Below are positions 37,852 to 57,149 of a DNA stretch of 64,000 nucleotides, piece by piece. The number at the start of each line of letters is the position of its first letter. Within the stretch, counting starts at the first letter, position 1. The notes under the pieces were generated by a model. It saw only the letters and a program-made list of their open reading frames with translations. It was not told the DNA's origin and did not search any database. This DNA comes from an uncultured virus (IMG/VR IMGVR_UViG_3300010885_066780). Taxonomy: Duplodnaviria > Heunggongvirae > Uroviricota > Caudoviricetes. The stretch lies in IMG/VR virus record IMGVR_UViG_3300010885_066780. One strand, written 5' to 3'. Position numbers and translations under genes: made by a program.

Positions 37852-38106
37852 ATGGTCATAATGGAATACTACCCGCATTCATTATTGATATATGACAATA
37901 CTGTTTATATAAGTGGATTAGATTTTTATATCAATTATTGTGTTCAACAACCTGAAAAAGCGAGCTCTAAAACAACATCACTGATCTTAAAAGAAAAATA
38001 TAACGCCGTAATTAGAAAAGAATATATAGATTCTGATATTATCAAAGTTTATTTGGATTTTGAAACGGAAGAAGACAAACTAGCATTCTTGATAGAATGG
38101 TCATGA
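37852..38106 (+). CDS. EDKLEF-family short protein
   Basis: Ends DFETEEDKLAFLIEWS. Confidence 0.8.
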   Translation: MVIMEYYPHSLLIYDNTVYISGLDFYINYCVQQPEKASSKTTSLILKEKYNAVIRKEYIDSDIIKVYLDFETEEDKLAFLIEWS

Positions 38107-38381
38107 TGAATAAAAATATGGACAAAATCTTGCTCGTCAGTGAATCCAATACTGGGAGATACATGATATACTATAGGAATTTTTTGAGATATTGTAAGAT
38201 TCAATATTCACTTCCATTTTCGAAACATGAAACGTTCATGGATCTGGTTGAATCTATCCTGGCAAAAGAATACAACTCGAAATTCAATATCATGATTTGT
38301 TCTGTACCATTGCACTATGTTGGTTATTTGGAATTTGAGTCGGAAGCAGACAAATTGGAATTTCTACTAACTTGGTCCTAG
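38097..38381 (+). CDS. EDKLEF-family short protein
   Basis: Ends EFESEADKLEFLLTWS. Confidence 0.8.
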   Translation: MVMMNKNMDKILLVSESNTGRYMIYYRNFLRYCKIQYSLPFSKHETFMDLVESILAKEYNSKFNIMICSVPLHYVGYLEFESEADKLEFLLTWS

Positions 38382-38440
38382 ACATTTATTGAATACAGAT
38401 CCAATTATTCATATAATTGATCATAATATAGGAGCATCAT

Positions 38441-39613
38441 ATGAAAATTGGTTACTGTGGACTGGAAAAATATGAAGGTAGGTATACTCTACAACTTCAA
38501 GATTGGAATGAACGCGTTTTTAAAAAACGTGGTATTGAATATATCTTAATTGATGGTGATACCTTAGATGATTCCAAATCCATTGTAACAGGACAGGTAC
38601 TGGATGCACACGGGCGTTCGTTCTTTTCGCTAACACAAATGGCAAATCTTGTAAAACAGCTGAAGCAAGGCGTTTTTAACAAGGACGACGTCATTTATTT
38701 TGAAGACATGTTTACACCTGGCATTGAAAGCTTGCCCTATATATTTGATCAAATAGATCCCAACTATCGACCTCGAGTAGCAGTTCGTTGCCTAGCACAA
38801 TCAATTGATCCTGATGATTTTGTTCATGTCTGGAAAATGGAACAGTGGATGGCGACTTATGAACGCATGGTAAACGAATTCGCTGATATTGTGTTGGCAT
38901 CAAATGAAGAAATGGTTGCTCATATGCGGATAGCAGGATGGAAAGCACCAATTTATAATATTTCCGGACTGGCTTTTGGTAAAGAGGAAGTTCAATCTAG
39001 AGTCAAGACAATTACTGAATTCAGCCAACGTAAGAACCGAGTTTGTTTTGCAAGTCGCTGGGATCGAGAAAAGAATCCTAATTTCTACATGGATTTGATT
39101 GAAGCTTGGTATAAAGCTTATCCAGATGAACCTGTTGAATTTGCTCTATTCATTGGCTCAAAGCTCCGGTCAAATGATGACAGCTATATGACTAGAACAA
39201 GACAACTACAAGATGAAGGTAAGCTGGTTATATATGAAGATTTGAAAAAAGATCAATATTACGAATTGCTAGCAGATTCCAGAGTCCTATTTAATTCAGC
39301 AAGTCAAGATTGGACTTCCAATACAGTAAGTGAAGCAGATGCACTGGGAACAAATGTCCTATTCCCCGCATATAGATCATTTCCGGAAATATTCGCAAAT
39401 GATCCTGATCGCATGTATATTCCGTGGTCCATTCCAGACGCTATTCAAAAGTTGGAAAAACTGTTGGTTGAACCACATCAAAACAAGGGGAAAATCAGTG
39501 ATTGGACAGATGGGACCATTGATCGCATTATAGATATTTTGACTGGTACTGGTGAAACCTGGAACCGATCAAACAACAATTATAGAACCCGACTCTTGGA
39601 AAACAAATACTGA
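38441..39613 (+). CDS. GT-B fold glycosyltransferase
   Basis: 'FASRWDREKNP', 'YYELLADSRVLFNSA.QD......EA..LG...L.P...SFPE'; AGGAG SD. Confidence 0.8.
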   Translation: MKIGYCGLEKYEGRYTLQLQDWNERVFKKRGIEYILIDGDTLDDSKSIVTGQVLDAHGRSFFSLTQMANLVKQLKQGVFNKDDVIYFEDMFTPGIESLPYIFDQIDPNYRPRVAVRCLAQSIDPDDFVHVWKMEQWMATYERMVNEFADIVLASNEEMVAHMRIAGWKAPIYNISGLAFGKEEVQSRVKTITEFSQRKNRVCFASRWDREKNPNFYMDLIEAWYKAYPDEPVEFALFIGSKLRSNDDSYMTRTRQLQDEGKLVIYEDLKKDQYYELLADSRVLFNSASQDWTSNTVSEADALGTNVLFPAYRSFPEIFANDPDRMYIPWSIPDAIQKLEKLLVEPHQNKGKISDWTDGTIDRIIDILTGTGETWNRSNNNYRTRLLENKY

Positions 39614-41250
39614 TGTTTAAAGCCAATCCTGATATTACAGTAAATCCCAATGCCAATGACTTGAGTAAGAACATTGAAGATGCAGCTTTGTTCTTACCCA
39701 GCATCAGTTCAATCTATGCAAAAATTGTCAGTATGGAAACCTATAGTCAAAGGACTGAACTTCCCAAAGGGTTGACAAATGGATTGAAGGAACTGCATTT
39801 CCTAGATCCCGCCAATAACCTATTCTATTACCCAGCAGCACTCTATTCAGCTGGACATGCTGATTTGAATCCCGAATCCAGTTGGTCAGTTGAGGCCATG
39901 GTTCAACAACGTGACAGAAACAGCACTGTAATAATTGGTGACTCAGGAGGATTCCAAGCTGCTAACGGAGTACTAAAATATCCTTGGCAACCCAAACCCA
40001 ATCAAACATTAGAAGATCTAAAATCAGACCAAGACGGGTTCAAACTCAAAATATTAAAGTGGTTGGAAGCAACTGCTGATTATAGCATGTTACTTGACTG
40101 GCCAACGCATAGTATGTTGCGATATGGGGTGGATCCAGTAACAGGTGAATGTCTACATCCTGGTCTAAAAACATTCGCAGATTGCTTGAATGGTAGTTTG
40201 GAAAATCACAAGTTTTTTGCCAAACACCGAACACCTGGTAAGACCAAGTTCCTAAACGTGCTACAGGGACGCAACCAAGAAGAGAATGACATTTGGTGGG
40301 AAGCTGTCAAAGACTTGCCTTTTGAAGGTTGGGCTTTGGGTGGTGCACAAGTAATGAACAATGCTATCAGTCTAAGACGATTGATTAGAATGCGTGATAC
40401 TGGTTACTTGCAGGGACGTGAATGGATCCACTATCTGGGTATTGGTAAAATTAAAACCGCTTGTTATTTGACTACCATACAAAGAAGTCTGAGGAAATAT
40501 GTTGATCCCGAATTGACTGTCAGTTTTGATGCATCAAGTCCATTCGTGTCTACTGCCATGGGAAAGGCCTACTATGGTTGGTTTTTAACTCATGAAAGAA
40601 ATGGGTTTACTTTGGATAACATGCCTGATGCCAAGGAATTGAAAAACAATCCCATGTTATTGAATGATTGGTTGCAGGATAAAACAGCTAATTTCAAACC
40701 CAGCACAATTGGTAGTAGGATTAACTTGGGTGATATTTGTGTTCGTGGATATGAAGATTTGGAATACAAATTGATTCCTTGGTCCAAAAAAGAACAGGCA
40801 ACTGATCATTATAAAAACAGTCCAGAAGCACGAGCCAATGACCAATTCAAATGGACACGTGCCTACAAAGAATATATTACTCATCATCCTGAACAGGGCG
40901 GATTGTTTGATTGGGGCACTGTGGATTTTTCTGATCCCACTAAAAAATATCAAACTAAATGGCCTAGTAGTTTGGATGGATTTAGCTATTTGTTGATCAT
41001 GAACCACAATCTGGAACTGCATATCAATTCCATGCGCGCCGCTACTGAAGCACAGGATCTGCCGATTGAACAAGCAAGTCAGTTACTGACCTCTGATTTG
41101 TTGGAATTCAAGGATTTATGTCCCGATATTTTTACAAGTGAACGTCCCATGGATTTGATTGCAAAACATGAAAAATTGTTGCAGAGTTTGGGAGGTCGTG
41201 ACATGGAAAGCACGACAGTGAAGAACGTGGAAGATATTTTTTATGAATGA
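39613..41250 (+). CDS. TGT-family transglycosylase (DpdA-like)
   Basis: 'GDSGGFQ', 'LDWP', 'VLQG', 'WALGG', 'HYLG', 'SFDAS' in TGT order; no CxCxxC zinc site. Confidence 0.8.
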   Translation: MFKANPDITVNPNANDLSKNIEDAALFLPSISSIYAKIVSMETYSQRTELPKGLTNGLKELHFLDPANNLFYYPAALYSAGHADLNPESSWSVEAMVQQRDRNSTVIIGDSGGFQAANGVLKYPWQPKPNQTLEDLKSDQDGFKLKILKWLEATADYSMLLDWPTHSMLRYGVDPVTGECLHPGLKTFADCLNGSLENHKFFAKHRTPGKTKFLNVLQGRNQEENDIWWEAVKDLPFEGWALGGAQVMNNAISLRRLIRMRDTGYLQGREWIHYLGIGKIKTACYLTTIQRSLRKYVDPELTVSFDASSPFVSTAMGKAYYGWFLTHERNGFTLDNMPDAKELKNNPMLLNDWLQDKTANFKPSTIGSRINLGDICVRGYEDLEYKLIPWSKKEQATDHYKNSPEARANDQFKWTRAYKEYITHHPEQGGLFDWGTVDFSDPTKKYQTKWPSSLDGFSYLLIMNHNLELHINSMRAATEAQDLPIEQASQLLTSDLLEFKDLCPDIFTSERPMDLIAKHEKLLQSLGGRDMESTTVKNVEDIFYE

Positions 41251-41503
41251 AAATAATAAGAAGTTATACATGAGAGATTTTTCTTCTAGTATGGCAAAAA
41301 ATATCACCAATCATTTTTCAGAAAATTATGATGCTAGAATAGATAATGAATTATTTTCATTGGTTGCTATAATGGGGATTTCATTAAATTATAAAGTAGA
41401 ACCATATTGGCGGAAATACCACAATGCTGCATTGTATTCAATGGGTGTGGTGATTTTTGATTCTGAAGAAGACAAATTGGAATTCCTATTGACATTCGGA
41501 TGA
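41243..41503 (+). CDS. EDKLEF-family short protein
   Basis: Ends IFDSEEDKLEFLLTFG. Confidence 0.8.
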   Translation: MNENNKKLYMRDFSSSMAKNITNHFSENYDARIDNELFSLVAIMGISLNYKVEPYWRKYHNAALYSMGVVIFDSEEDKLEFLLTFG

Positions 41504-41507
41504 TCAA

Positions 41508-41840
41508 ATGACTGCAATAAAGACAGAACGTCCCCAACCTATTGATATGTGGGAGTTACCTAATGTTTACAATACAAATTGCTGCCTTCAAATACGGTAT
41601 CAATGCGACATAGATGACGATATCGATGTTTTTTCTTCCTGTGGTTTGAAATTGCATAGCGCATATAAAAATTTTAAAAAAAGATTTAAAGATCAAAGAA
41701 CTTTTGACAAATCTTTGAATGATGTGTTAGAGATTGAATGGCGCGCAAAAATATTTTTTCATTCAGATGATTCAGATTTACAGTATTTGCTATTTGAAAC
41801 ACCAGAAGATAAACTAGATTTTGTCATGACTTTTGGATAA
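41508..41840 (+). CDS. EDKLEF-family short protein
   Basis: Ends LFETPEDKLDFVMTFG. Confidence 0.8.
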   Translation: MTAIKTERPQPIDMWELPNVYNTNCCLQIRYQCDIDDDIDVFSSCGLKLHSAYKNFKKRFKDQRTFDKSLNDVLEIEWRAKIFFHSDDSDLQYLLFETPEDKLDFVMTFG

Positions 41841-41848
41841 ATATATTT

Positions 41849-42538
41849 ATGAAAACATTACATGAATATATAAGAGAAATTGAAATCAATTTAAATATTC
41901 CTGCTGCAAGCAATGCTAAACTATTGAAAAAAATAAAACCTCGAGATTGGTCAGAATCTACTCTAACAGTTTATTTTAAGGAAAATGAAACAGAATGCTT
42001 GTATATTGTGGTAGATTCAAGGTTTGGAGTATCTGACCCAATTGGATTTTTAGGTTTCGAGAAGGTCGGTGATAAAATGTTGTGTGCAAGAAATGCTGCT
42101 GTAAAACCAAATTTTCAAAAGCGTGGGATTTTGAGTGAGTTGATGTTGTTCGTGAAAAAAACTACCGGTTTTGAAATAATAAGTGATACCATAATGTCTG
42201 ATGCCGGCATTGCATTGTGGAAAAGTTTGAGTAGATCCCCCTTCTTTTCAATGAAAATAGTTGATGTGAAAAATAACATAAAATTTGATTTTTCTGATAT
42301 TGGTAGTGAATTACCAGATGGTGATATTGCCATTGATCCCAAAGATGATAATAAAAATGAAAAATTCTATGAGGTTGGAAATCCTAATGGACAACGGTTT
42401 TTCTATATATTGGAATCAGCTGACAAATTCAATATGATGGTAGAAACAACATCATATGCATATGGTTATTTGATGCGCAGTAGAGAACCACATGGGTTAT
42501 TAAGTCCACATGGGTATTTTGAAACAGGTGATCTCTAG
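41849..42538 (+). CDS. GNAT-like putative virion internal protein
   Basis: MKTLHEYIRE leader (compare T4 capsid-targeting MKTYQEFIAE); 'VKPNFQKRGILSEL...SD..MS..G..LW'. Confidence 0.55.
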   Translation: MKTLHEYIREIEINLNIPAASNAKLLKKIKPRDWSESTLTVYFKENETECLYIVVDSRFGVSDPIGFLGFEKVGDKMLCARNAAVKPNFQKRGILSELMLFVKKTTGFEIISDTIMSDAGIALWKSLSRSPFFSMKIVDVKNNIKFDFSDIGSELPDGDIAIDPKDDNKNEKFYEVGNPNGQRFFYILESADKFNMMVETTSYAYGYLMRSREPHGLLSPHGYFETGDL

Positions 42539-45173
42539 TTGTTTGAACTTGAATGGAAAAATTGTTTATTGATCGGAACTTTGAAAAATGATCAATATGA
42601 TTTGATTGATAGTTATTTGAATTTTTGTACTAATTGGCGGAAATTAAAACAAGTGAATCTTTCATTGAAAATATTTCTGAGAAATGAATTTGGTGCAGAA
42701 ATAGTTTTTCATGAAAATCACATATTTCTTGAATTCCCCTCAGAAGAAATTAGAATGGAATTCCTATTGACTTATTCATGAGAATTTGATATGAGACACA
42801 AATTGATACAAATATACACTTTTTTGAGTACCCGGTGAAACCAACCCCAATCTGGCAGAATTATTTGGACTCAGTTTTTCAGAGAAAATTAACTTACACT
42901 GAATATTTAGAATATACATATTACCCAGATTACCCTAGGGTGCTTCAGTCTTTAGAAAAAATCGGTGCGAAAAAACACAATTGGTATATTGAATTTGACA
43001 CAGATGAAGACAAGTTGGAATTCCAGTTGACCTATGGATAATCAACCAGATACAAACTGCAAACTTCTTTTGTATGAAAATAACGGGGCAATACCAGCAT
43101 GGAAAACGGTTCTCACCCAATTCAAACCCTTGTTGGGTAATACAGAGCTCATCAACTCGAAATATGAAAAACTATTGTCTGATTTTAATTGTATCCGAGA
43201 CCGAGACTACTTGATTTTTGACACCTTAGAAGATAAATTGGAATTTATAATGACATATTCATAGGTGGATTGGTGCTCATGCATAAAATACAAGTCAATG
43301 AAGAATCCAGCATGTGGAAAAATTTTGAAAAAGCTGTTGAGCAATTCAGTTTTCCATATAGATACGCCTATCAACAATTTTTGCAACAATTATATGCAGA
43401 TGCCAAAATTACCGAATGGTTTGAAGAAGATGAATTTGTTTTTGCAGTTTTTGAATTTATATCAGCTGAAGATTTATTTGAATTTAAAATGAAGTTTAGT
43501 TGATGGTACAAAACACCGAATACAACAATAGGCTGTCATTACTGTCAGAAGATAGATCTGACTGGGCGACGTATTGGATAAATTTCGTTGACAAATTCAA
43601 AGACCAGATAGATTTTAAAACATCTCTAAGTATGCAAGATAGATACAATCCGATTCTACAGGAATACAACGCTAAATTAAATTTGGGATCAATTGAATTT
43701 GAAATAGCAGAAGACAAACTGGAGTTCATGTTAACTTATGGATAAATCAGTGGTATATAATAAACGTACTTGGTTAGAAATCACGTATCTGAGCGGCACT
43801 TCTATGATCGCCTATTATACTGACATTTTTAGGAATTTTTTAATATCGATTGCAGAAACCCATGATTTTTATTCATCAGAATTTTATGATTATTTAAAAG
43901 ATAAATGGAATGCAACCGTCTATGAATCTCCGGATGATTGGAGTTCAAGCTATATTATATTTGAAACAGCAGAAGACAAACTGGAGTTCATGTTAACTTA
44001 TGGATAATCTCTATATGAATCACGACAGAATACATATGATTTATATCATGGATAATGACTCTATTTTTCAGAATGAACGATTGTGGGAACATTTTTGTGA
44101 GAAGGCAGATGCTTTTGATGAATGTGGATTTTATCATGCTCCAAAATATTGGCGAAATTGTCACAATGCCTTAATATTTTATAATGATGATAATGACGGA
44201 GTACTGATATTTGATACAGCAGAAGACAAGTTGGAGTTCATGTTGACTTATGGATAATATTTTGGTTGTACAAGGTGACGATTATTTGTGGCTTCACATA
44301 TGGCAAAATGCCATCAAAGTCATTAACATGAAAAATCCGCGCTCTTGGACAGGTGAAAATAGAATCATTGAATACAATAATTTTTTGTTGGATTATAATG
44401 CAGAATTTATAACTGCTGTTAATCAGCGCTGGTATGTCAAATTTAAAACAGTGGAAGACAAATTGGAGTTCATTTTGACTTATGGATAAACCAACATTAC
44501 AAAGAATAGAAAATAATAATTGGACAAGAATTTGGACAAGATTTGTAATGGCACTTCGAGAAGAAAGTCCCCATCAAACGGGTGAAGACATGTGCGAAAC
44601 ATATAACTTGTTTTTGAAACCATATAATGCTAGAATAGAAAACATGTTTTCAATGTCAATTGAGTTTGATTCTGAAGCTGACAAGTTGGAATTTCAATTG
44701 GTATTCGGATGAAAAAGAAAAAATTGCAAATTATGTCATATGGATACCAAAGAGGACCACTACCAGCTTGTTGGGTGAATGTCATTGAACCCATATATCA
44801 GGCTAACTCAAATTCACCCGACGAATACTTTGCTGCAATAGATAAAAAATTAAAGGAATATAATGCCATTAGAGTCGGGTTCACCCTTGAGTTTGATTCG
44901 GAAGCCGATAAACTGGAGTTTCAAGTAACTTGGGGATAACGAGTGACTGATTTGAAATTGCAGATATCAGATGATGATGGCTATAGTGCAGGCGCTCAAT
45001 GCTGGCTCCCCCTCTATCAAAAATTTCTAAAATGTCATTTTGGTAATAGAAGTATAACTAGTATCTTGTATGAAAAATTCAACGCCACTCTCACGCGTGG
45101 TATTGACAATTATTGGTATTTGATATTTGAAACACCAGAAGACAAACTGGAATTCATCTTGACTTATTCTTGA
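42539..45173 (+). repeat. Tandem array A of 11 EDKLEF-family ORFs (track starts 42539, 42835, 43034, 43270, 43500, 43738, 44000, 44250, 44482, 44709, 44943)
   Basis: Each ORF ends in the conserved motif; ~230-270 bp period; 40-bp identical repeat at 43706-43745 and 43968-44007. Confidence 0.9.
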
Positions 45174-48143: not shown

Positions 48144-48145
48144 AA

Positions 48146-48626: not shown

Positions 48627-49004
48627 TTGGTGTTGACACCATCCAAGAAAATCAGCATAATGCTCCAGCAAAAGGAGACAGCCATGAGCTTGGAAATTCA
48701 CGACGTGGAATGGGTTCGAGATTCAGAAAATGATGTGGTAGTCAACATCTCATATCATTTCATGCCTGGACTAGCAGCACAAACATCGGGCCCACCTGAG
48801 GCCTGTTGGCCAGCTGAACCTGCTGAAGTTGACATTATCAGAGTCTGGGATGACACTTGTTCTGACATTGAATTAACTGATGAAGAACTACACACAGCTC
48901 AACTCCATATCCTAGAGAACCATCAGGAAGACGACCGGGATTGGGACCGAATTCGGGAAGACCGTTGGGAGAGAAGCCGTTTGAGTGTAGAGTACAGTGA
49001 CTGA
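48627..49004 (+). CDS. Hypothetical protein
   Basis: 'GPPEACWPAEPAEV'; TTGACA-N17-CATAAT promoter and AAGGAG SD suggest the start is MSLEI. Confidence 0.65.
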   Translation: MVLTPSKKISIMLQQKETAMSLEIHDVEWVRDSENDVVVNISYHFMPGLAAQTSGPPEACWPAEPAEVDIIRVWDDTCSDIELTDEELHTAQLHILENHQEDDRDWDRIREDRWERSRLSVEYSD

Positions 49005-49197
49005 GTGTTACTACTTGTCCATGACGCATCAAGCTGCGGAAAATTTGTGAATGTCAATTAACTCCATTGATGATTATTTGTTGTATTTGAATATCTATGA
49101 TGAACTCCTTGCCAAATTCCGAATGGTAGAATGGTGAGAATATCTTTATTTTGAAACGCCTGAAGATCGCTTGGAGTTTATTTTGACTTATGGATAA
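48997..49197 (+). pseudogene. EDKLEF-family member with two in-frame TGA codons
   Basis: One frame from GTG 48997 to ...FETPEDRLEFILTYG with TGA at 49048 and 49135. Confidence 0.7.
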
Positions 49198-50621
49198 TCA
49201 GTTCATTTATTTGGAGAGTGATTCACGCCCTGCTTTGAAATGGTTACAGCTCCATCAAAGAACTTGGCCCGGACCAGAACATTCATTGTCCAATTTCAAT
49301 GCGATACTGGTGAGTAGGTTTATTCGATTTGATTCTGAAGCCGATAAATTGGAGTTTATATTGACTTATGGATGATATTAAGTTGCATTGTTTATCCGAC
49401 CCAGTTCAAAATTGGGCAAATGCATGTTTGCTCGCGGGGATCCACGGTGAACATTTGTTGGATGAATTCCACGCATTTTATCGTCACGAAGACGGAGTTG
49501 GATACATTGCTTTTGAAACAGCTGAAGATCGCTTGGAGTTCATTTTGACTTATGGATAAAGAAGAAATTTCATTGTTTTTATATTTGTATGGCACAGGCA
49601 GAATTCTGGTGTGGAACAACTTTATCATCGCCATCACTGGAAATGAAGATGCTTTCCTTTTGCAATATGATAAAATATGCCTTGCTTTAGAAAAGTTTGG
49701 TGCTAGGTTATCAGATGCAAACTTCAATTCAGAAACGCGTTTGATTTTTGAATCAGAAGATGACAAACTAGAGTTTATGATATCATATGGATAAAACACT
49801 TATTGTATTAGGTACGTATTCTCCGATTGTAGAAAATTGGGTTACACATAATATAAAAAACTGGCGAGATCAAGAAAAATTGAAAGCACACCGGCTTGAC
49901 AATTTTAATGCTCGACTAGAAGGCAGTTTTATAGTATTTGCTTCTCAATCTGACAAGCTGGAGTTCATGTTGACTTATGGATGATCTTTTGTCTATTGAT
50001 TTATATCCGGTCCCTCCTGACTGGAACAATGCCTGGAACAACTGGCTTAAAGACAACACCAACGCCAATGATAGGTTTGGTACTGAAAGATTGCGAGAAG
50101 ACTGGGGAGCAAATTTGAATTACAGAACAGGATGTTTGGAATTTGTCGATCTAGAACATAGAATGGAATGGTTGATTGCATGGAGTTAACTGCTTTGGAT
50201 CCAAAACTTGTTCTACAAGTCTATGACGATAATCGCATATTACCTGCCTGGGATAATTTCATGTCAGCTAGACAAGAACTTGAACCATATCATATGAAAT
50301 ATGTTCATCGTCGGGATCTAGAAACGGATGCTACTTGCTCACTAGTGGTTTTTGAAACTGAAGCTGATAAACTGGAATTTTTGATGACATGGAGTTGAAA
50401 TGTCAGACATTGATCGACTTAAGTTAACGTTGTATGGATATGGTTTTGCCAACCATGAAGCTATTGCTGTTTGGCGAAATTTTGCAAATCATAGTTATTT
50501 CAATGACAATAGCCCCTATTGCGAGCTTGCGCAATATAATGCTAGGTTTACCGACTCTTATTCAGAGTTGATTTTTGATTCCGAAGACGATAAACTGGAA
50601 TTTTTGTTGACGTGGAGTTAA
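49190..50621 (+). repeat. Tandem array B of 7 intact EDKLEF-family ORFs (49190, 49368, 49552, 49787, 49977, 50168, 50400)
   Basis: Conserved C-termini; ATGGAT(A/G)A start/stop overlaps. Confidence 0.9.
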
Positions 50622-50622
50622 G

Positions 50623-50904: not shown

Positions 50905-50954
50905 CGAGACGTTTGTGTACCGTTATCATTGACACCTAACCAAGGGTGGGTTCA

Positions 50955-51101: not shown

Positions 51102-51165
51102 TTTGACAATTTGACTTCGTTGTCTTAGATTTAATTGATATGATATTTACAGGGTTTAGGAAATT

Positions 51166-51624: not shown

Positions 51625-51791
51625 CGATTGAAAAATTGCTGCCCTGGATTGCAATGGTAATAATCATAGCCCAACATGTGTTGCTCTGGGCATTGGTGTA
51701 CATGACACGAACAGCACAGAAACATGCGAATGAAGCATGGGATTATGTTGTTACTCTCTACGACTTAGAAAAGGATCCTCATAATGAGTGA
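51621..51791 (+). CDS. Small membrane protein (56 aa, not in ORF track)
   Basis: MTIEKLLPWIAMVIIIAQHVLLWALVY...; overlaps both neighbours. Confidence 0.55.
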   Translation: MTIEKLLPWIAMVIIIAQHVLLWALVYMTRTAQKHANEAWDYVVTLYDLEKDPHNE

Positions 51792-52029
51792 TCAAAAAAC
51801 GTGGCAACCAACGCCCGAACAAATGATCGAAATCATGAACCTTGATGGACTATTGTCACGCGGCCAAATTCATCCAGTTGATTATATTTCTAGAATCTTG
51901 GCTGCTGGTCCAGACTGGCAATCTATAGCCGTGGATTTAGCGAACGGTATTGATGCTTCTTGGTGGGGTGACTGGGAACCGTTGAAAACTGCTTTAGAAC
52001 GCTACCGCGCGGCTGGAGAGAAGCCGTGA
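51784..52029 (+). CDS. Hypothetical protein
   Basis: AAGGA SD, operon packing. Confidence 0.6.
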   Translation: MSDQKTWQPTPEQMIEIMNLDGLLSRGQIHPVDYISRILAAGPDWQSIAVDLANGIDASWWGDWEPLKTALERYRAAGEKP

Positions 52030-52135
52030 ACTATCCGAAATGGTGCTGTCAAACATGTGGCTACCCTATCGGGTATATTGGATGGTTTCTGCAATGGGCC
52101 CGACTGTCGCCACATCAATGTAAAGGATCCGGCCG

Positions 52136-52384
52136 ATGACAACCCTTAGGGAAAAGATCGCAGACGTTGTTGACGAAACCGTTGAACCGGATGGGAGAGG
52201 CGGATCTATAACAAGTTCAGTTACATTAGATGCTGTTATCGCCGCCGTGATTGAACATGCGACGAGCGATGAGGCGGTGGAGCGGGCAAATAATGCATGG
52301 GTCGAGAAAAACGAAACACACGGCTATGACCCAAGCAATTACCATTTCCGCGCAGCTATCCGCGCAGCTATAGAAGGTGAGTGA
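52136..52384 (+). CDS. Hypothetical protein, paralog of 52508..52753
   Basis: Shared 'TLREKIA...AVIEHAT..EAV.R...IRAAIEG'. Confidence 0.7.
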   Translation: MTTLREKIADVVDETVEPDGRGGSITSSVTLDAVIAAVIEHATSDEAVERANNAWVEKNETHGYDPSNYHFRAAIRAAIEGE

Positions 52385-52507
52385 TGACCACAGTGCATAC
52401 TTGCAAACAGTGTGATAAAAATACGGGAATTTGGCTATATAAAATCAGTCAATTACCCAAATTCATTACAATTGAACAGATGAAAACGCGTCGAGAATTG
52501 AGGGATA

Positions 52508-52753
52508 ATGTCTACACTTAGAGAAAAGATTGCAGTAGAAATTTGGAAGGCACAGATTCGTGAGCAGGATAATTCAGAAGCTGTCACTGCTATTTTGGTG
52601 GCTGTGATTGAACATGCGACTTGCGAAGAAGCAGTAAAACGTTTTCTTTTAGAACAATATGGAGAACCAGATGAAGATGATCCGTCCCACAATTGGGCGC
52701 CGGATACTTTTCAAATTATAAGTGATTCCATTCGAGCAGCAATAGAGGGGTGA
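52508..52753 (+). CDS. Hypothetical protein, paralog of 52136..52384
   Basis: Same shared motifs. Confidence 0.7.
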   Translation: MSTLREKIAVEIWKAQIREQDNSEAVTAILVAVIEHATCEEAVKRFLLEQYGEPDEDDPSHNWAPDTFQIISDSIRAAIEG

Positions 52754-53067
52754 ACATGGATCCAATTTCATTTTTATTGGGATTTTTTTTAGGTGGTATG
52801 ATAGGAATTACAGTGCTGGTTATTGTGATTTCAATACAACCTAAATCAAAGAAAAAAGATGCTCAACAAGTTTGGCTCAAATATGACGGTGGTCGGTTTG
52901 CCAAAGCCAATCTCAAAACCAATCCCTGGCGAGAAAAATATTGCTGGTGGGATGAAGAATCTGAACAGGGCTTGATTTTCCTATTAGAAGACGGTACTGT
53001 GAAAACAGACGAAGTGAGCCAGCACGTGACAAACTGGAAATTTGTGGAAACAGGAGATTCCCGATGA
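52750..53067 (+). CDS. Membrane-anchored hypothetical protein
   Basis: N-terminal hydrophobic helix. Confidence 0.6.
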   Translation: MNMDPISFLLGFFLGGMIGITVLVIVISIQPKSKKKDAQQVWLKYDGGRFAKANLKTNPWREKYCWWDEESEQGLIFLLEDGTVKTDEVSQHVTNWKFVETGDSR

Positions 53068-53378
53068 GTGATTATCAAAATATTAATAAGATCAGATATA
53101 ATCTACGAGTACTTCGTTATTACCCTGGCACTGACTACTGGTTTGATATTTGGAATCGAAACAAGCATGCAGTTGATCTAGTAGACGAAGCAGTCAAGTG
53201 GTTTGACATTGGCATTAACTATATTGATGATCCTGACTTGCAATCAAAGGTCCGGACCATTCGTGATCAACTGGCCAAGTCCAAAACTAGCAAGACGCCT
53301 TTCGATGAATATTTTGCTGCCTATGAAGCAGTTCGAGCACTTAGCCGAGAGGATGAACGTCTGCTGCTTACCAAATAA
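53064..53378 (+). CDS. Hypothetical protein
   Basis: ATGA overlap, AGGAG SD. Confidence 0.6.
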   Translation: MSDYQNINKIRYNLRVLRYYPGTDYWFDIWNRNKHAVDLVDEAVKWFDIGINYIDDPDLQSKVRTIRDQLAKSKTSKTPFDEYFAAYEAVRALSREDERLLLTK

Positions 53379-53477
53379 ACGAATATAACACCCGGCAGAG
53401 TTTTCCAATCGATAACTTTTTGTTGACTTCTTTCTCAGAACTGTTACTATGTCTTTGTTAAACAAAGGAGCTACAAA

Positions 53478-53768
53478 ATGTCTTATGTAATTTACAGCAA
53501 GAATTCGGAAAATGGTCGAGTCAAGCGTATGACCACGCATGCTACTCTGCGTGGCGCAAAGATCAGCATGGCCGCACTGCAAAAGCGAGAAAATGCACGG
53601 TGGGGTGATCGAGCTGCACAATATCAAATTACAGATGTCGAAAATTATAATGCCACTGTGAATGGAAAGATCATGGTGCGCAACTTGATGTCGGGCGCGA
53701 TGGTCGAAGAAGATGCAGACACCCCACACTTTTGCAGTGTTAGCAGTGAAAGCTACTGGTCGATGTGA
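53478..53768 (+). CDS. Hypothetical early protein
   Basis: TTGACT-N17-TACTAT promoter, AAGGAG SD. Confidence 0.7.
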   Translation: MSYVIYSKNSENGRVKRMTTHATLRGAKISMAALQKRENARWGDRAAQYQITDVENYNATVNGKIMVRNLMSGAMVEEDADTPHFCSVSSESYWSM

Positions 53769-53800
53769 CCAACGATTTATATAGTTTTATACCAAATTGG

Positions 53801-53828
53801 TCCCAGGCTTATGTCTGGGATCTTTTTT
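53801..53828 (+). terminator. Intrinsic terminator
   Basis: TCCCAGGC-TTAT-GTCTGGGA followed by a T-run. Confidence 0.7.
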
Positions 53829-54892
53829 CAACTGAATGTCATGAGAAATTCTAATCGGTCTGATTCGGATTTGAAAATCAATGAAGTTTTGAAATGGTTT
53901 TCAAAACTAGCATTCCACTCACTTTTGAGAGTCTGTTCAATGTCCAATTCATATTGTCGTACTTGATCATACATGGTTTTTATATGTTTGGGTTTGGAGT
54001 TTGAAATGGGTATAGAATCTCTGAATTTCTGCCAATAGGACAGTTTATTCCAGTTAATGTCATAAAGTTTCAAAATTATATCAGTCATTTGATCATCCAA
54101 ACGTTATCAAAAATTCAAATTTATCGGCTTCAGATTCAAAAATCAATACTTCATTATCAGGATCATATGTGGCAGAAAATTTCGATACTGCATTTTGAAT
54201 TTCCTCATTAATTTCTTCCGCGTATTCACTCCTCGCAGAAAACCTTCTCCAATACCATTCAGTTTCATAAATATCAATTGAATTCAACATGTTGTACCAG
54301 CAATCATGAGTTGAATCAATGGTTGCAGATTGTTGTTTAAAAATTTGAAGAATAATTTCAGTCATTAGCTTATCCAAACGTCAAAAGGAATTCAAATCTA
54401 TCTTCAATAGAATCAAATCGAATTATGAAATCAGCGCCCAGTAATTGCAAGCGACCATTGAAATTTTTCAAGACTTGATCACGCCACAGATAAATTGATT
54501 CGCCGTTTGAATATTCTGAACTGTATTCATAGGTTGTTTCATAGTGGTTTTTAAAATTCCACCAAACATTGGTGAACATGTCAAAAGATCCCAAATGTAG
54601 ATCAGCGGGTTCCATTAGTTTAACTCCACTGTAATTTAAATTCCAGCTGGAGATCTGGGTCATCAAACGTGATTATATTGCCATTCTCTTCTATAGCAGC
54701 TGAATATTCAGCCAATAGTTGTTTTTCTAATTCAAAATTATACCGATTCAAGCGATCTTGTAAAATAAAATTTATGAATTTTGGATAATCGCCGATATCT
54801 ATTTGATTTTTTTCCAAAGCTTTCACACCCATGTTAACATGTAAAAATCCAAAATAGTAATATAAAGTAATATAAATTAATTGATTTGTCAA
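53828..54892 (-). repeat. Array C, distal part: 4 EDKLEF-family ORFs (stops at 53828, 54093, 54370, 54620)
   Basis: End EFLMTFS, EFLITFG, EFLLTFG, EFKLQWS. Confidence 0.85.
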
Positions 54893-54917
54893 TCAATTTA
54901 TCATATAAATAAAACAA

Positions 54918-56129
54918 ATGAAATCAATCAAACTCGAAGCTGATTATGATTATGAACAAGTAGCAGACATACAACGTGTCTATTCGTCTGCTGTGCGATC
55001 TGCTTTTCAATTCCCCAAATCAACTAAAGAAATTGATGTTCGAGCTGATTTACGTTCCAAATTCCCCGAGTTGGGAAGTTGGCTATTGCAATGTGCTGTG
55101 CAACAAGGGCGCGGCATACGAAAACGATTCCCAGATCAACAAATTGTATTTGGTGGCAAGAAAAACTTTGCAGATCGAACAAGAAACCGAATAACTCAAT
55201 CAGAATATCGAGCTAACAGATTAATTCCCATGACAATTCAAGGCGAAGCATCACAAAAAAGCAATAGGTTGTTTGAATTCGATTTAGCAAACCAAACAAT
55301 TGTATTTAAACCAAAGTCGGGAATTCGAATCAACATTCAATTAAAAGGCATCGGTACAAATCGACAACTAGATTTGAATTGGTTACAAACACAAATCGGA
55401 TTAAAACCAATCACCGTTGTTTTATCAAAAGGATACGTTGTTATTCAATTTGATGATAATCGAACGTATGATACACCAAAAATAATTGGTCGCACAGCTG
55501 GTATTGATCAAAACCCGAACTCAATTGGTTTGGCTATACGAGATGGCCAAAAGATCGTCCATTCAGCTATGTTTGACTTGCATGAGATAGCAGATCAAAA
55601 CAAAAAGCGACACGAAATAATTCAAATAACACAAAAAATAATTGAGTTGCTAGTTCATTTCCAAGTTGCGAGTTGTAACTTGGAAAAACTAACTATGGGT
55701 GCTAAAGACCAGGGAAAAGGACTTCGTTTTAATAGAACTGTTAATAATCAATGGCATCGTATTTTATTTCAAGCACAATTAAAGAAACGACTCAGAATGT
55801 ATGGTGTTGAAATACGTGAAGTCAAATGCAATTATTCCAGTTATATTGGCAACATAATAAATTTTACCTATCCAGATGCAATTGCAGCAGCAATTGAGAT
55901 CAGTTATAGACATACGCGATATCTACCCGAAGAAAAACTAGATTCCCACAACACATTTTTTTACCTATGGAAGGAATTAGGAGATTGTTGTGCTAGTTGG
56001 CTGGAGTTGTGTAAATCTATCAAAAATGCGAAATTGAAATATCGTGTTTCCCACAAACCGGGTTCAAATACCTGCAGTGGTTTTAGATTAATGAGTGAAC
56101 GTAGTCTTGTTACTATTTTTACTCGTTAG
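54918..56129 (+). CDS. tnpB: TnpB-like (IS200/IS605/IS607-related) RuvC nuclease, no transposase nearby
   Basis: RuvC-I 'AGIDQN', RuvC-II 'NLEKL', 'NNQW.R', 'YSSYIG', RuvC-III 'PDAIAAA'; lacks the usual CxxC finger. Confidence 0.82.
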   Translation: MKSIKLEADYDYEQVADIQRVYSSAVRSAFQFPKSTKEIDVRADLRSKFPELGSWLLQCAVQQGRGIRKRFPDQQIVFGGKKNFADRTRNRITQSEYRANRLIPMTIQGEASQKSNRLFEFDLANQTIVFKPKSGIRINIQLKGIGTNRQLDLNWLQTQIGLKPITVVLSKGYVVIQFDDNRTYDTPKIIGRTAGIDQNPNSIGLAIRDGQKIVHSAMFDLHEIADQNKKRHEIIQITQKIIELLVHFQVASCNLEKLTMGAKDQGKGLRFNRTVNNQWHRILFQAQLKKRLRMYGVEIREVKCNYSSYIGNIINFTYPDAIAAAIEISYRHTRYLPEEKLDSHNTFFYLWKELGDCCASWLELCKSIKNAKLKYRVSHKPGSNTCSGFRLMSERSLVTIFTR

Positions 56130-56131
56130 TT
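56086..56131 (+). ncRNA. Long hairpin at the tnpB 3' end (candidate omega-RNA / right-end element)
   Basis: ~19-bp stem (G-U pairs, one mismatch) around loop CTTGTT (56106-56111). Confidence 0.45.
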
Positions 56132-57149
56132 ATTTTAATTTAAATTCCAATAAATCTTCTGAAGAATCAAATATTATTATTCCGCCAGGAACATATTCAC
56201 CGCGGTATTTTTTGGCTTCTTGACATCTGATATCATATATAATAGGATACAATACACCAGTTTGACGACCACCGCATATTGCCATTGCCAGATTATCACA
56301 GTGCTCGTCAAATTTTTTGGTGATTGAAGTTGCAAATTCAGGTTGTGTCACTTCACTGTATTGTATCATCTTATCCCCAATAGATCTGAAATTCAAATTT
56401 ATCTTCTGCTGTTTCAAAAATTATGTTGTCATCTGTGAGTGTTGCATTGAATGGTAGAAGTTCATGATTTAAAATCGCGTTCCAAGTTTCATACATGCTA
56501 GATTTTATAGGTGTTCTGTAAAAAATTTCTGAACAATGATCAATAAAATGAGAAAACGAATAGATAGAAGTACTATCACGTTTGATGACAATTAATTCGT
56601 CTTGCGTTATCATCTTATCCCCATACCATTTTGAATTCCAAAAGATCGGTTTCACTGTTAAACATGATAAGATCACGTTTTTTGTACCCGTTGAATTTGG
56701 CTAATTCTTGATCACACAAATCTTCGAATGATTTATATGGGAATTGAATTGATCTACCACAATCACGCACAATGTTCACCCACTTGATGTCACAATATAG
56801 TATAAAATTCAAAAAATATATAGGCATGTGATTTGGATTTGTGCCTTGATGAAATCCAATAAATGGTTCGTCATTTGAAGTAGTCATCTCATCCCCACGC
56901 CAACTTGAATTCCAGCATGTCTTCAGCTGATTGAAAAACAAGGTGTCTTTCAATATATTTCCCATTAAATTTTTCAAGTTCAAGATGTGTCAATGTACGT
57001 CGTATGTCTAAAAACTCTCCATAGTTTTTTGAACGTTCTGCAGCACGATCACCTACCCAATCATAAAATTTCTCTACTGACATCCATGGATAAATCATGA
57101 AATCAGTTTTCCAGGGTGTTTTGTCCACAGCTAACATTTTGATACTCAT
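56130..57149 (-). repeat. Array C, proximal part: 4 EDKLEF-family ORFs (56130-56369, 56371-56613, 56615-56887, 56889-57149)
   Basis: GGGGAT(A/G)AGATG junctions; last member ends short (EFKLK*) at the tnpB boundary; TTGACA-N16-TATAAT at 57189-57162. Confidence 0.85.

What the first reader, a model, noticed from the sequence alone, without database searches (positions are those of the whole stretch)
37852..57149. About 31-member cassette-like gene family: variable bodies with a constant C-terminal motif, in head-to-tail arrays
Seen: about 31 ORFs of ~60-110 aa at 37.9-38.4, 41.2-41.8, 42.5-45.2, 49.0-50.6 and 53.8-57.1 kb. They share little beyond a W-x-N-F-like patch, 'YNA' and the terminal F-E/D-x-x-E-D-K-L-E-F-x-L-T-Y/W-G/S. 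At DNA level this forms a repeat-spacer pattern of ~40-50 bp conserved repeat plus ~150-230 bp unique coding spacer. Inference: the constant segment could be a docking helix for one common partner and also a recombination platform for adding, deleting or swapping cassettes, giving a diversified library, possibly of anti-defence or host-interaction proteins. Function is unknown.
Basis: partly seen in the sequence, partly recalled or inferred. Interest (0 to 1): 0.85.

Follow-up and report, generated by a model that had tools for sequence, protein, structure and literature searches.

The report
Expanded small-protein family in jumbo phage
A large phage carries 31 tandem genes for small acidic proteins of an undescribed family that share a strand-plus-helix ending, turn over quickly between close relatives and reach about 150 copies in another huge phage, so they look like a fast-evolving toolkit for dealing with the host, though their function is untested.

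Summary
The window holds 30 intact genes and one broken gene (61-110 aa) in six head-to-tail arrays. All share W-x-N-F, (Y/F)-N-A and the ending F-x-S/T-x-E-D-K-L-E-F-x-L-T-Y/W-G/S.

The genome is a jumbo contractile-tailed phage. The family matches no Pfam, PHROG, NCBIfam or PDB entry, but a profile finds 347 metagenomic cluster representatives. Related jumbo phages also carry arrays: 27 copies in a sister phage, 14 in a 365-kb genome, at least 149 in a 561-kb genome, and a small cluster in cultured Sinorhizobium phage Phosso.

Within the window the bodies are weakly homologous, with a predicted beta-alpha-alpha-beta-beta-alpha fold. Across subfamilies only the last 20 residues align.

Against a sister phage with 84-92% identical flanks, 10 of 24 and 13 of 27 members have no orthologue. 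Orthologues show dN/dS 0.28, against 0.086 for flanking genes.

The constant segment is not homogenised across the family, but adjacent tails share silent codons more than other pairs (19/5000 permutations; bodies show no such effect), which suggests short gene conversion between neighbours.

All members are acidic, and many overlap stop-to-start. My best reading is a birth-and-death library of early host-interaction or anti-defence proteins. The function is untested.

The parts
37852..38381 (+). Array A: 2 family genes (37852-38106, 38097-38381)
   Evidence: HMM E 2.3e-8 and 5e-12. The first gene is absent from sister phage L001: the blastn blocks jump from 37868 to 38062, and it has no orthologue.
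41243..41840 (+). Array B: 2 family genes (41243-41503, 41508-41840)
   Evidence: HMM E 8.8e-17 and 3e-18. Gene 41508-41840 is only 41% identical to its syntenic L001 orthologue. A contig of run X2 has a joint at 41504->41782 that spans exactly this gene's body (single contig, what lies between is not known).
42539..45173 (+). Array C: 11 family genes (42539-42781, 42835-43041, 43034-43264, 43270-43503, 43500-43745, 43738-44007, 44000-44257, 44250-44489, 44482-44712, 44709-44939, 44943-45173)
   Evidence: HMM E 4.3e-21 to 1.3e-10. 48-nt repeat in 9 copies. Only 2 of the 11 have an L001 orthologue. The tails of 43500 and 43738 share 13/13 comparable codons.
49054..49197 (+). Broken family member (in-frame stop), first unit of array D
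   Evidence: Reading frame shown. It is 79% identical to the intact L001 orthologue at L001:14833-15039.
49190..50621 (+). Array D: 7 intact family genes (49190-49375, 49368-49559, 49552-49794, 49787-49984, 49977-50189, 50180-50398, 50400-50621)
   Evidence: HMM E 2e-19 to 2.8e-6. All 7 have L001 orthologues at 50-95% identity, but L001 has 4 extra members here and the 49552/49787 pair is in swapped order.
53828..54892 (-). Array E: 4 family genes (53828-54088, 54093-54365, 54370-54615, 54620-54892)
   Evidence: HMM E 4.5e-18 to 3.3e-10. Each next ATG lies 4 nt after the previous stop.
56130..57149 (-). Array F: 4 family genes (56130-56369, 56371-56613, 56615-56887, 56889-57149)
   Evidence: HMM E 2.8e-18 to 5.5e-7. 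The junctions read GGA-TAA-G-ATG. Gene 56130-56369 lacks the last two residues that its relative P0046 has.
57162..57189 (-). Sigma-70-type promoter-like site, a perfect 12/12 match (TTGACA-16-TATAAT), 13 nt upstream of the first gene of array F
   Evidence: This is a consensus match only; the total promoter-like count in the region is not above chance (85 against 77.9, sd 9.1).
48633..48661 (+). Promoter-like site (11/12) upstream of the leader ORF (ATG at 48684) and array D
   Evidence: Homology to L001 begins at 48684.
53799..53822 (+). Terminator-like hairpin (10 pairs, 6 G-C, T-run) between the plus-strand block and the converging array E
54918..56129 (+). 403-aa distant TnpB-like ORF that separates arrays E and F; not part of the family
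   Evidence: TIGR01766 E 2e-4, below the curated cut-off; no Pfam or PDB match. An X2 contig joins 54591 to 56313 with 14 other letters between, so it lacks this ORF (depth 2.9, one contig).

Best explanation
What it is. This is a phage-specific multigene family of small (61-110 aa), acidic, soluble single-domain proteins. The predicted fold order is beta-alpha-alpha-beta-beta-alpha. The genes sit in six operon-like arrays. In most of them the next gene's ATG overlaps or closely follows the previous gene's stop, often inside the conserved Tyr-Gly-stop codons (ACTTATGGATAA).

Shown here. (1) The 31 copies are old, deeply diverged paralogues, not recent duplicates. (2) They are under purifying selection but change amino acids about five to six times faster than neighbouring genes. 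(3) Gene content, and in one place gene order, differ between two phages whose backbone is about 90% identical, in whole-gene units. (4) Adjacent constant segments share silent codons more than other pairs do, and the bodies do not, which fits short gene conversion between neighbours. (5) The family or superfamily forms arrays in several distant jumbo phages, with at least 149 copies in one genome. (6) Across subfamilies only the terminal strand-helix module is recognisably conserved.

Inferred. The conserved C-terminal strand plus amphipathic helix (an S/T-x-x-D/E helix cap followed by F-x-L-x-W/Y) is the folding core of a common scaffold. The variable N-terminal helices and the loop between them present different surfaces. 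Each array would then be co-expressed, probably early from host-type promoters, as a set of binders aimed at different host proteins such as defence or takeover targets. The repertoire would be reshaped by birth-and-death and recombination in an arms race.
For: Family is real and beyond chance.

Whole-length homology within the window: the HMM covers positions 4-68 in most members, and the body-only profile test works.

Fold: two AlphaFold2 models, pLDDT 78 and 81, give the same order of elements.

Physical properties: all 30 members are acidic, pI 4.1-6.7 (median 4.6), and no hydrophobic run of 15 or more residues (the script's cut-off) was found.

Coupled junctions: an ATG overlaps the last codons or the stop in 20 of the 31 ORFs the HMM reports in the window (30 members plus one doubtful ORF), 16/27 in L001, 10/18 in L006 and 37/39 in L007.

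Old paralogues: the best-scoring within-window pair is 43% identical, 47.8 bits.

Selection: 12 orthologue pairs pooled give dN 0.18, dS 0.65, dN/dS 0.28. 14 flank genes give dN 0.033, dS 0.38, dN/dS 0.086. 30 of 31 copies are intact.

Turnover. In 5 of 5 edges inspected, homology switches at the motif or the junction. One mosaic allele (window 43034 against P0035): 23/25 against 21/51 identical residues, p 1.7e-5.

Tail-specific neighbour effect at silent sites.

Breadth: 347 representatives at E <= 1e-3 out of 1.84 billion. G003 has 14 copies, 11 of them in one array. G004 has at least 149. Phosso has 7, including genes 499-503. DNA polymerase identity to these phages is only 46-49%.

Viral only: the nearest ESM Atlas clusters are 100% viral, and the scan of 185,579 species' genomes returned no locus (motif-limited).

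Promoter-like sites before arrays F and D.
Against: No experiment or annotation links any member to a function. No listed run holding the stretch is on record as RNA, so neither expression nor its timing is shown.

The promoter evidence is two consensus matches in a region whose overall promoter-like count is at chance level, and the host is unknown.

The scaffold-core reading rests on AlphaFold2 models without coordinates or burial analysis. No solved fold matches (best VIA Z 3.7), so the models cannot be checked against a known structure.

Acidity and small size are common among phage early proteins of many functions.

The two subfamilies are linked by only 20 aligned columns, so common descent of the bodies is not shown.

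Gene-unit turnover could come from differential loss alone.

The neighbour effect is modest (0.68 against 0.59). In L006 it is not significant (445/5000).

Strain-level copies from another assembly (L002, L003) are collinear and 99.9-100% identical, so the arrays are stable over short timescales.
Confidence: 0.5

Rival explanations
1. Address-tag or docking model. The conserved C-terminal strand-helix is a shared recognition module that plugs many different small proteins into one common partner, for example a packaging or ejection route into the virion, a phage-encoded hub, or one conserved host machine. The N-terminal bodies are the variable cargo.
For: Across subfamilies only the last 20 columns align (probability 96.4%, E 1.2e-9), while the bodies differ (W-x-N-F ... 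Y-N-A against E-W-C ... P). Nearly every member listed ends one residue after the conserved aromatic residue; a few carry short C-terminal extensions (for example P0068, P0086, P0120). Longer forms of 149-185 aa in G004 keep the module at the extreme C-terminus behind unrelated extensions, two of which start with a hydrophobic segment. Tail dN is lower than body dN (0.085 against 0.215).
Against: Both AlphaFold2 models pack the segment into the domain with high confidence (block pLDDT 86-95). The pattern F-x-S/T-x-E-D-x-x-x-F-x-L-x-W reads as a capped amphipathic core helix. No candidate partner gene was found co-occurring with the arrays. Acidic proteins would be unusual passengers beside packaged DNA (recalled knowledge: T4 internal proteins are basic). 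Fixed termination may simply follow from the overlapping stop/start design.
Confidence: 0.2
2. Nucleic-acid-binding regulators. The beta-alpha-alpha-beta-beta-alpha order is that of a type-I KH domain, so the arrays would encode many RNA- or ssDNA-binding regulators of phage or host gene expression.
For: The order of elements in the second model matches. Several weak structural rows are KH domains (BICC1, KSRP, FUBP1, PCBP2, ASCC1; VIA Z 2.6-3.5). A KH-S1 chimera and a mimivirus KH protein appear among the weak Foldseek rows.
Against: All these scores are below the tool's stated noise level (typical best Z is 7-8). The consensus has no conserved G-x-x-G between alpha1 and alpha2. All 30 members are acidic, median net charge about -6, which is unfavourable for binding nucleic acid.
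Confidence: 0.07
3. Functionless or selfish filler. The arrays are leftovers of tandem duplication that pad a head-full packaged genome and drift neutrally.
For: Hua et al. 2017 (PMC5646251, passages read) proposed tandem duplication as a route to jumbo genome growth. One copy is broken. Content varies freely between relatives.
Against: 30 of 31 frames are intact despite paralogue divergence down to about 20-40% identity. dN/dS is 0.28. The motif is conserved across phages whose DNA polymerases are only 46-49% identical. Coupled stop/start junctions are maintained.
Confidence: 0.05

Closest known systems
[quoted passage not shown] 2017, mBio, PMC5646251; passages read; cited in the review PMC13282480)
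   Same: A jumbo phage carrying about 30 or more head-to-tail paralogous genes, read as genome growth by tandem duplication.
   Different: The family profile A4 finds nothing in either genome at E <= 0.1. The same profile does match Phosso. The G and 121Q copies are described as 'very similar', whereas here the best-scoring pair is 43% identical. Here the copies lie in six arrays on both strands, interleaved with other genes.
Genomic accordions and viral multigene families: poxvirus K3L amplification (Elde 2012, seen only as a reference in PMC13359090); accordion-like expansion in large phages (statement in PMC13359090, passages read); ASFV MGF families (recalled)
   Same: Copy number and content of a viral gene family differ between close relatives. 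The setting is plausibly an arms race with the host. Recombination between repeated units is involved.
   Different: Accordions are recent amplifications of near-identical copies that expand and collapse quickly. Here the copies are ancient and each is distinct; strain-level copies are collinear; only short tail-to-tail conversion is seen.
Amplification of a counter-defence gene in experimentally evolved T4 (bioRxiv 10.1101/2022.04.14.488369; only the search listing and the start of the abstract were seen)
   Same: A phage changes the dosage or content of small accessory genes by recombination in response to a host defence.
   Different: That work concerns a single gene of known function in the laboratory. 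Here the function is unknown and the diversity is natural and old.
Type-I KH domain fold
   Same: The predicted order of secondary-structure elements, beta-alpha-alpha-beta-beta-alpha.
   Different: There is no G-x-x-G loop, the proteins are acidic, and structural scores are at noise level. It is not a member.
CRISPR-like repeat-spacer arrays
   Same: A regular alternation of a conserved segment of about 48 nt with unique segments of about 130-215 nt.
   Different: The 'repeat' is the in-frame 3' end of a protein-coding gene and the 'spacer' is the rest of the next gene. Repeat identity is 63-100%, with variation at silent codon positions. It is not a CRISPR array.

Membership tests
Any curated protein family (Pfam-A, PHROGs v4, NCBIfam 20, PDB sequences) | Score above the family's threshold against a curated profile | tested here: not met
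   Pfam: 8 window members and 4 foreign or L007 members give no hit above the cut-off; the best is DUF4884 at E 0.0066 and 16.6 bits against a cut-off of 30. PHROGs: 10 members, 0 families. NCBIfam: 4 members, 0. PDB profile search: best E 0.16.
Phage G / 121Q tandem-array gene families (Hua 2017) | About 30 or more head-to-tail paralogues in one jumbo phage | tested here: met
   31 copies in six arrays within 19.3 kb.
Phage G / 121Q tandem-array gene families (Hua 2017) | Copies 'very similar' to one another | tested here: not met
   The best-scoring within-window pair is 43% identical (47.8 bits). Identity to the first sequence in alignment A1 is 16-43%.
Phage G / 121Q tandem-array gene families (Hua 2017) | Detectable sequence homology to those genes | tested here: not met
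   Profile A4 gives 0 matches at E <= 0.1 in JN638751 and KM507819. The same profile matched Phosso. Very remote homology is not excluded.
Type-I KH domain | beta-alpha-alpha-beta-beta-alpha topology | tested here: met
   DSSP on the AlphaFold2 model gives E8-10, H16-34, H39-45, E48-50, E56-59, H62-72. This is a prediction only.
Type-I KH domain | Conserved G-x-x-G loop between alpha1 and alpha2 | tested here: not met
   The consensus of A1 (30 sequences) and A4 (120 sequences) has no conserved Gly pair there; the stretch is the most variable and most gapped part.
Type-I KH domain | Significant structural superposition on solved KH domains | tested here: inconclusive
   The best KH rows have VIA Z 2.6-3.5 and rmsd 3.1-3.9 over 53-59 residues, below the tool's noise level. 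Foldseek gives no row at E <= 0.001.
Genomic accordion (recent tandem amplification) | Near-identical copies generated recently | tested here: not met
   Paralogues are at most 43% identical (best-scoring pair). Silent-site sharing in bodies is 0.50-0.51.
Genomic accordion (recent tandem amplification) | Copy number and content differ between close relatives | tested here: met
   24 against 27 members over the shared span, with 14 orthologue pairs, 10 window-only and 13 L001-only members.
Phage anti-defence proteins (Acr-like, Ocr-like; a functional class, not a sequence family) | Small, acidic, phage-only, and located in a variable accessory region | tested here: met
   These features are permissive, not diagnostic.
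Phage anti-defence proteins (Acr-like, Ocr-like; a functional class, not a sequence family) | Demonstrated inhibition of a defence system | not testable with these tools
   This needs plating and biochemical assays.

The most novel reading that the evidence does not exclude
The roughly 20-residue C-terminal strand-helix is a universal address module of a jumbo-phage effector system. It would let up to about 150 different small proteins per genome dock to one common machine, such as a delivery or packaging route or a single host hub. Short gene conversion between adjacent modules would keep the address readable while the cargo bodies diversify and are exchanged as whole-gene cassettes.
Probability: 0.15. 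Interest if true: 0.85.

Novelty: new variant of a known kind. Interest (0 to 1): 0.62.

Why it matters
Most genes of jumbo phages have no known function, and why their genomes grow so large is an open question. This family has no entry in the curated libraries searched, yet it supplies 31 genes in 19 kb here and at least 149 genes in one 561-kb phage, so it can account for a visible share of that growth.

The combination of features marks it as a strong candidate for host-interaction or counter-defence functions. The proteins are small and acidic, the operons are translationally coupled, amino acids change quickly under purifying selection, whole genes turn over between near-identical backbones, and conversion is specific to the tail.

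Because cultured Sinorhizobium phage Phosso carries a small cluster (genes 499-503), the question can be tested at the bench. If the shared ending proves to be a common docking or targeting module, it would define a new phage effector architecture.

Tried and rejected
Whole genome of the window: none is held, so copies outside the window could not be counted.

Close DNA relatives among deposited phages: none by megablast.

Single-sequence searches: tblastn of three members (window 43738-44007, P0105, P0057) against 50,697 phage records gave no match. The word-index search of 5.8 billion proteins returned only the query. The 'longer' mode found no fused forms; 7 candidates were scored and none passed.

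Scans of the larger collections: the full alignment was too degenerate for the metagenome and genome scans, so the tighter sub-alignment A2 was used. It gave three metagenome loci: two contigs of the same phage plus the L001 contig again. It gave no locus in cellular genomes. That scan is limited to one peptide pattern, so absence from cells is weak evidence.

Fold searches: Foldseek against PDB twice, BFVD once and VIA-wide twice gave nothing significant. The best BFVD rows are unnamed small phage proteins (probability 0.84-0.96, E 0.06-0.17).

ESM Atlas: only unnamed viral clusters.

Fusions as functional clues: seven longer G004 forms and two tandem-domain proteins have no Pfam domain above threshold.

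Cultured relatives: Atu_ph07, PA5oct, Vibrio phage 2.275.O and LR756502 gave 0 matches with both profiles.

Expression: no RNA holder was listed among the sequencing runs.

Population variants: all four runs are kept as contigs, so rare variants cannot be seen. Joints with a side under 30, and those in the glycosyltransferase and 545-aa genes, were disregarded as likely coming from other organisms.

Complex prediction (homodimer of a member, prompted by the natural tandem fusions P0062 and P0075): the queue was full on every try and the tool was then declared unavailable. Nothing was folded.

Earlier notes of this scan: nothing by place or by sequence.

Literature: four searches found no paper on this family. 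Supplements were not consulted.

CRISPR reading of the repeat-spacer look: rejected, because the repeat is coding.

Other points: no tRNA genes in the window. A doubtful ORF at 63586-63795 (E 0.0075) lacks the motif and was not counted.

Full report
WHAT THE WINDOW IS

The 64-kb window comes from a contractile-tailed jumbo-type phage.
- It encodes a 1346-aa tail sheath (PHROG 10581, E 3e-222), a DNA polymerase B split into two ORFs, PhoH, a deoxynucleoside-monophosphate kinase, and a PrkA/YeaG-type kinase cluster.
- It also encodes a MazG-type pyrophosphatase, GTP cyclohydrolase I, a dCMP-deaminase-like protein and a GIY-YIG endonuclease.
- No deposited phage is close in DNA. The nearest DNA polymerases are those of Sinorhizobium phage Phosso and Agrobacterium phage Atu_ph07, at 46-48% identity.
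- No whole genome is held for the window.

CHECKING THE OBSERVATION

- A regex for the terminal motif gave 21 hits, each ending at a stop codon.
- An HMM built from them, run over all 1029 six-frame ORFs, gave 30 ORFs at E <= 2.8e-6. The next hit was at E 0.61.
- A 31st copy at 49054-49197 carries an in-frame stop. Its orthologue in the sister phage is intact.
- D-K-L-E-F written as degenerate DNA occurs 18 times against 0.03 expected.
- The copies form six head-to-tail arrays of 2, 2, 11, 8, 4 and 4 genes. The last two arrays are on the minus strand and are separated by a 403-aa ORF.
- The shared W-x-N-F, (Y)-N-A and F-x-S-x-E-D-K-L-E-F-x-L-T-x-G patches appear in the consensus.

ANATOMY

With corrected start codons the proteins are 61-110 aa (median 80). 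All are acidic, with pI 4.1-6.7 (median 4.6) and median net charge about -6. None has a long hydrophobic run.

The junctions are distinctive. In many genes the next ATG lies inside the previous gene's Tyr-Gly-stop codons (ACTTATGGATAA, an 8-nt overlap). In the minus-strand arrays it lies 1-4 nt after the stop. Overall an out-of-frame ATG overlaps the last codons or the stop in 20 of the 31 ORFs the HMM reports in the window. Those 31 are the 30 members plus one doubtful ORF. In 5 more ORFs an ATG follows within 12 nt. This is the layout of translationally coupled operons.

A perfect TTGACA-16-TATAAT lies 13 nt upstream of array F. An 11/12 site precedes the leader ORF of array D. A strong hairpin with a T-run closes array E. 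These are consensus matches only, and the overall promoter-like count is at chance level.

ARE THE BODIES UNRELATED?

Within the window they are related.
- The HMM aligns most members over positions 4-68 of 68.
- After removing the last 18 residues, a profile trained on array C bodies ranks 8 of 19 held-out bodies above all 999 decoys. The reverse training ranks 7 of 15 above all decoys, at weak E-values.
- Two AlphaFold2 models agree on a compact beta-alpha-alpha-beta-beta-alpha domain in which the constant segment is strand beta3 plus helix alpha3. One used 30 paralogues (pLDDT 78) and the other 120 diverse sequences (pLDDT 81).
- The motif reads as a helix cap (S/T-x-E-D) followed by an amphipathic helix (F-x-L-x-W/Y). 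That reading is my inference.

No solved structure matches.
- Foldseek gives no row at E <= 0.001.
- The order of elements is that of a type-I KH domain, and several weak rows are KH domains. However, there is no G-x-x-G loop and the proteins are acidic, so this is a topological resemblance only.

HOW WIDE IS THE FAMILY?

Curated libraries have no entry: Pfam, PHROGs, NCBIfam and PDB sequences all give nothing above threshold.

An exhaustive profile search of 1.84 billion representatives found 347 at E <= 1e-3. Of the best 150, 16 are the window's own and 134 are foreign.
- Nearly all are 60-110 aa and matched end to end. Two (P0062, P0075) are tandem two-domain fusions.
- Public sources give them no name beyond 'hypothetical protein'.
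- The nearest ESM Atlas clusters are 100% viral.
- A pattern-limited scan of 185,579 species' genomes returned no locus.

Viral-contig scans found a sister phage (L001) and three jumbo-phage genomes of 365, 385 and 561 kb, classed 97-100% complete.
- With the window's profile, the 365-kb genome has 14 copies, 11 of them in one 6-kb array.
- With a broader HMM, 20-kb loci hold 18 copies (L006) and 39 copies (L007).
- The L007 subfamily ends F-x-S-E-E-D-A-x-x-F-K-L-K-W-L. Its own profile finds at least 149 matches in the 561-kb genome, with only 150 of 261 candidates scored.
- These phages share only 46-49% DNA polymerase identity with the window phage.

Profile-profile comparison links the two subfamilies at 96.4% probability (E 1.2e-9), but only over the last 20 columns.

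Overlapping stop/start junctions are general: 16/27 in L001, 10/18 in L006 and 37/39 in L007.

Among cultured phages, only Sinorhizobium phage Phosso carries members.
- It has 7 matches at E <= 1e-3.
- They include a tandem cluster, genes 499-503, annotated as hypothetical proteins with 4-nt overlaps and lying among nucleotide-metabolism genes.
- Atu_ph07, PA5oct, Vibrio phage 2.275.O and a 642-kb uncultured phage gave none.

EVOLUTION

(1) The paralogues are old. The best-scoring pair in the window is 43% identical, 47.8 bits. Neighbours are slightly closer kin than other pairs: body amino-acid identity is 0.183 against 0.162 (71/5000 permutations), and same-array pairs score above different-array pairs (9/2000 permutations).

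(2) Turnover is fast.
- Sister phage L001 is 84-92% identical in DNA across most flanking genes; one block across the end of array D is 80.7%.
- Inside the arrays, homology breaks into patches. 14 members pair as orthologues at 41-95% amino-acid identity. 10 of 24 window members and 13 of 27 L001 members have no orthologue. Two further reciprocal-best pairs at 35-36% were not counted as orthologues.
- The 49552/49787 pair is in swapped order.
- In 5 of 5 edges inspected, homology switches on or off at the motif or the stop/start junction. That fits crossover there, but it is also expected if only whole-gene changes survive and because any two tails align.

(3) Selection.
- For 12 orthologue pairs the pooled dN/dS is 0.28 (dN 0.18, dS 0.65). 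The pair with a truncated L001 copy and the pair with the broken gene were left out.
- For 14 flank genes the pooled dN/dS is 0.086 (dN 0.033, dS 0.38).
- The genes are therefore functional but fast-evolving.
- Body silent-site identity (0.756) is lower than that of the backbone (0.831, p 0.0014). The tail (0.84) equals the backbone. This suggests some bodies are older alleles brought in by recombination.
- One clear mosaic allele exists. Window 43034 and metagenomic P0035 share 23/25 residues in the tail part and 21/51 in the head part (p 1.7e-5). The breakpoint lies mid-gene, upstream of the motif.

(4) Is the constant DNA a recombination platform?
- Across the family it is not. Same-codon share among same-residue pairs in the last 17 codons is 0.59 against 0.53 expected from the phage's codon usage, and the D and E columns are more varied than expected.
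- Locally it may be. Adjacent tails share silent codons at 0.679 against 0.586 for other pairs (19/5000 permutations). Bodies show no effect (0.514 against 0.499; 1784/5000).
- There is no array-wide effect; only immediate neighbours differ.
- The effect recurs in L001 (0.644 against 0.586; 195/5000) and L007 (0.561 against 0.462; 36/5000). L006 shows a trend (445/5000, 6 pairs).
- The extreme pair 43500/43738 shares 13 of 13 comparable codons (47 of 48 nt), while the proteins are 36% identical overall. Recent duplication cannot explain this pair; short gene conversion can.

(5) Short-term stability and population hints.
- Two contigs from another assembly are the same phage, 99.9-100% identical and collinear over 37699-53489. 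They break inside array C, between the near-identical tails.
- Four runs from four studies hold the stretch, all kept as contigs.
- Run X2 carries a diverged strain. One of its contigs joins 54591 to 56313 with 14 other letters between. This removes the TnpB-like ORF and the adjoining family sequence, so arrays E and F are contiguous there.
- Another X2 contig has a joint spanning exactly the body of gene 41508-41840. Each joint rests on one low-depth contig and is only a hint.

INTERPRETATION

Shown:
- A new, phage-only, very large family of small acidic proteins.
- Organisation in translationally coupled arrays.
- Purifying selection with fast amino-acid change.
- Whole-gene turnover between near-identical backbones.
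- Silent-site sharing between neighbours that is specific to the tail.
- A terminal module that is the only part conserved across subfamilies.

Inferred:
- The module is the folding core of a common scaffold.
- The variable N-terminal helices and loop give each member its own binding surface.
- The arrays are early operons supplying many binders against host proteins, possibly defence systems.

I put about 0.5 on this package. The structural and evolutionary parts are well supported; the function is not.

The main rival, at 0.2, is that the module is a shared address or docking element for one partner. The 20-column result, the usually fixed C-terminal end and the longer forms that keep the module at their end all leave this open. 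A nucleic-acid-binding role (0.07) and neutral filler (0.05) are unlikely.

COMPARISON WITH WHAT IS KNOWN

[quoted passage not shown] The present family is not detectable in those genomes, and its copies are far from 'very similar'.

Reviews state that large phages undergo accordion-like expansions (PMC13359090, passages read). Classical accordions are recent amplifications of near-identical copies, which is not the case here.

Four literature searches found nothing on this family.

I therefore rate it a new variant of a known kind: a known phenomenon (expanded paralogue arrays in large viruses) carried by an undescribed family with its own architecture and dynamics.

LIMITS

- No expression data, no known host, and no experimental structure.
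- The whole genome of the window phage is not held.
- The complex prediction could not be run.
- The link between subfamilies rests on 20 columns.
- Contig-only read data cannot show rare variants.

Noticed in passing
window 54918-56129 (+): A 403-aa ORF with only a distant TnpB-like signal (TIGR01766 E 2e-4, below the cut-off; no Pfam or PDB hit) sits between arrays E and F. One contig of run X2 joins 54591 to 56313 without it, which suggests a mobile insertion into a once-continuous array.
   Followed up: partly
window 46387-48684: A 2.3-kb stretch is present in the window but replaced by about 120 bp in sister phage L001. It holds a GIY-YIG (LEM-3-like) endonuclease gene (46365-47267, minus strand) and two ORFs of 250 and 152 aa, and looks like a homing-endonuclease-associated insertion.
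   Followed up: partly
window 41849-42538 (+), 47391-48143 (-), 48146-48604 (-): Three paralogous ORFs (BLASTP E 1e-18 and 1e-7) are interleaved with the arrays; the first has a weak GNAT acetyltransferase signal. All three are absent from L001, so they form a second, smaller variable family.
   Followed up: partly
window about 50600-53800: An island of higher G+C (0.42-0.44 against 0.33-0.38 around it) holds a DUF551 protein (51166-51624). It also holds two visibly similar small ORFs, 52136-52384 and 52508-52753, which both start M-x-T-L-R-E-K-I-A and end I-R-A-A-I-E-G. Part of the island (51403-52756) has no match in L001, and an X2 contig replaces two segments there.
   Followed up: no
window 31048-34499 (+): DNA polymerase B is split into two overlapping ORFs (564 and 587 aa), here and in L001. 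In the three related jumbo genomes the match lies in a single open frame of 934-993 aa.
   Followed up: no
window 10016-14711 (-): Three adjacent genes look like an auxiliary stress-response module. One is a 642-aa PrkA/YeaG-type kinase, 61% identical to a gene annotated YeaG in Enterobacter phage LAU1 and also found in several 600-kb uncultured phages. One of the other two matches a PHROG labelled 'sporulation protein'.
   Followed up: no
window 15061-19101 (-): The tail sheath gene is unusually long, 1346 aa. Its C-terminal 700 residues match the sheath PHROG, while the N-terminal half is unassigned apart from a short repeat-like match.
   Followed up: no
window 57162-57227: Two back-to-back strong promoter-like sites face opposite ways: a perfect TTGACA-16-TATAAT towards array F, and TTGACA-17-TATTAT with an extended TG towards the deaminase-like gene at 57248.
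   Followed up: no
window 43785-43882 (ends of L002 and L003): Two contigs of the same phage from another assembly overlap only here, inside array C, between two tails that are 47/48 nt identical. This is an assembly break at the repeat.
   Followed up: partly
L026 (G004 99600-101400): Two longer members of the divergent subfamily (149 and 154 aa) begin with a hydrophobic, membrane-anchor-like segment, so some members may be membrane-tethered.
   Followed up: no
L029 (Phosso 369506-370992): In Phosso the cluster of family genes 499-503 lies between a nucleotidyl transferase and a polynucleotide kinase, near a 6-pyruvoyl-tetrahydropterin synthase. This echoes the window, where the arrays are interleaved with GTP cyclohydrolase I and other nucleotide-metabolism genes.
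   Followed up: no
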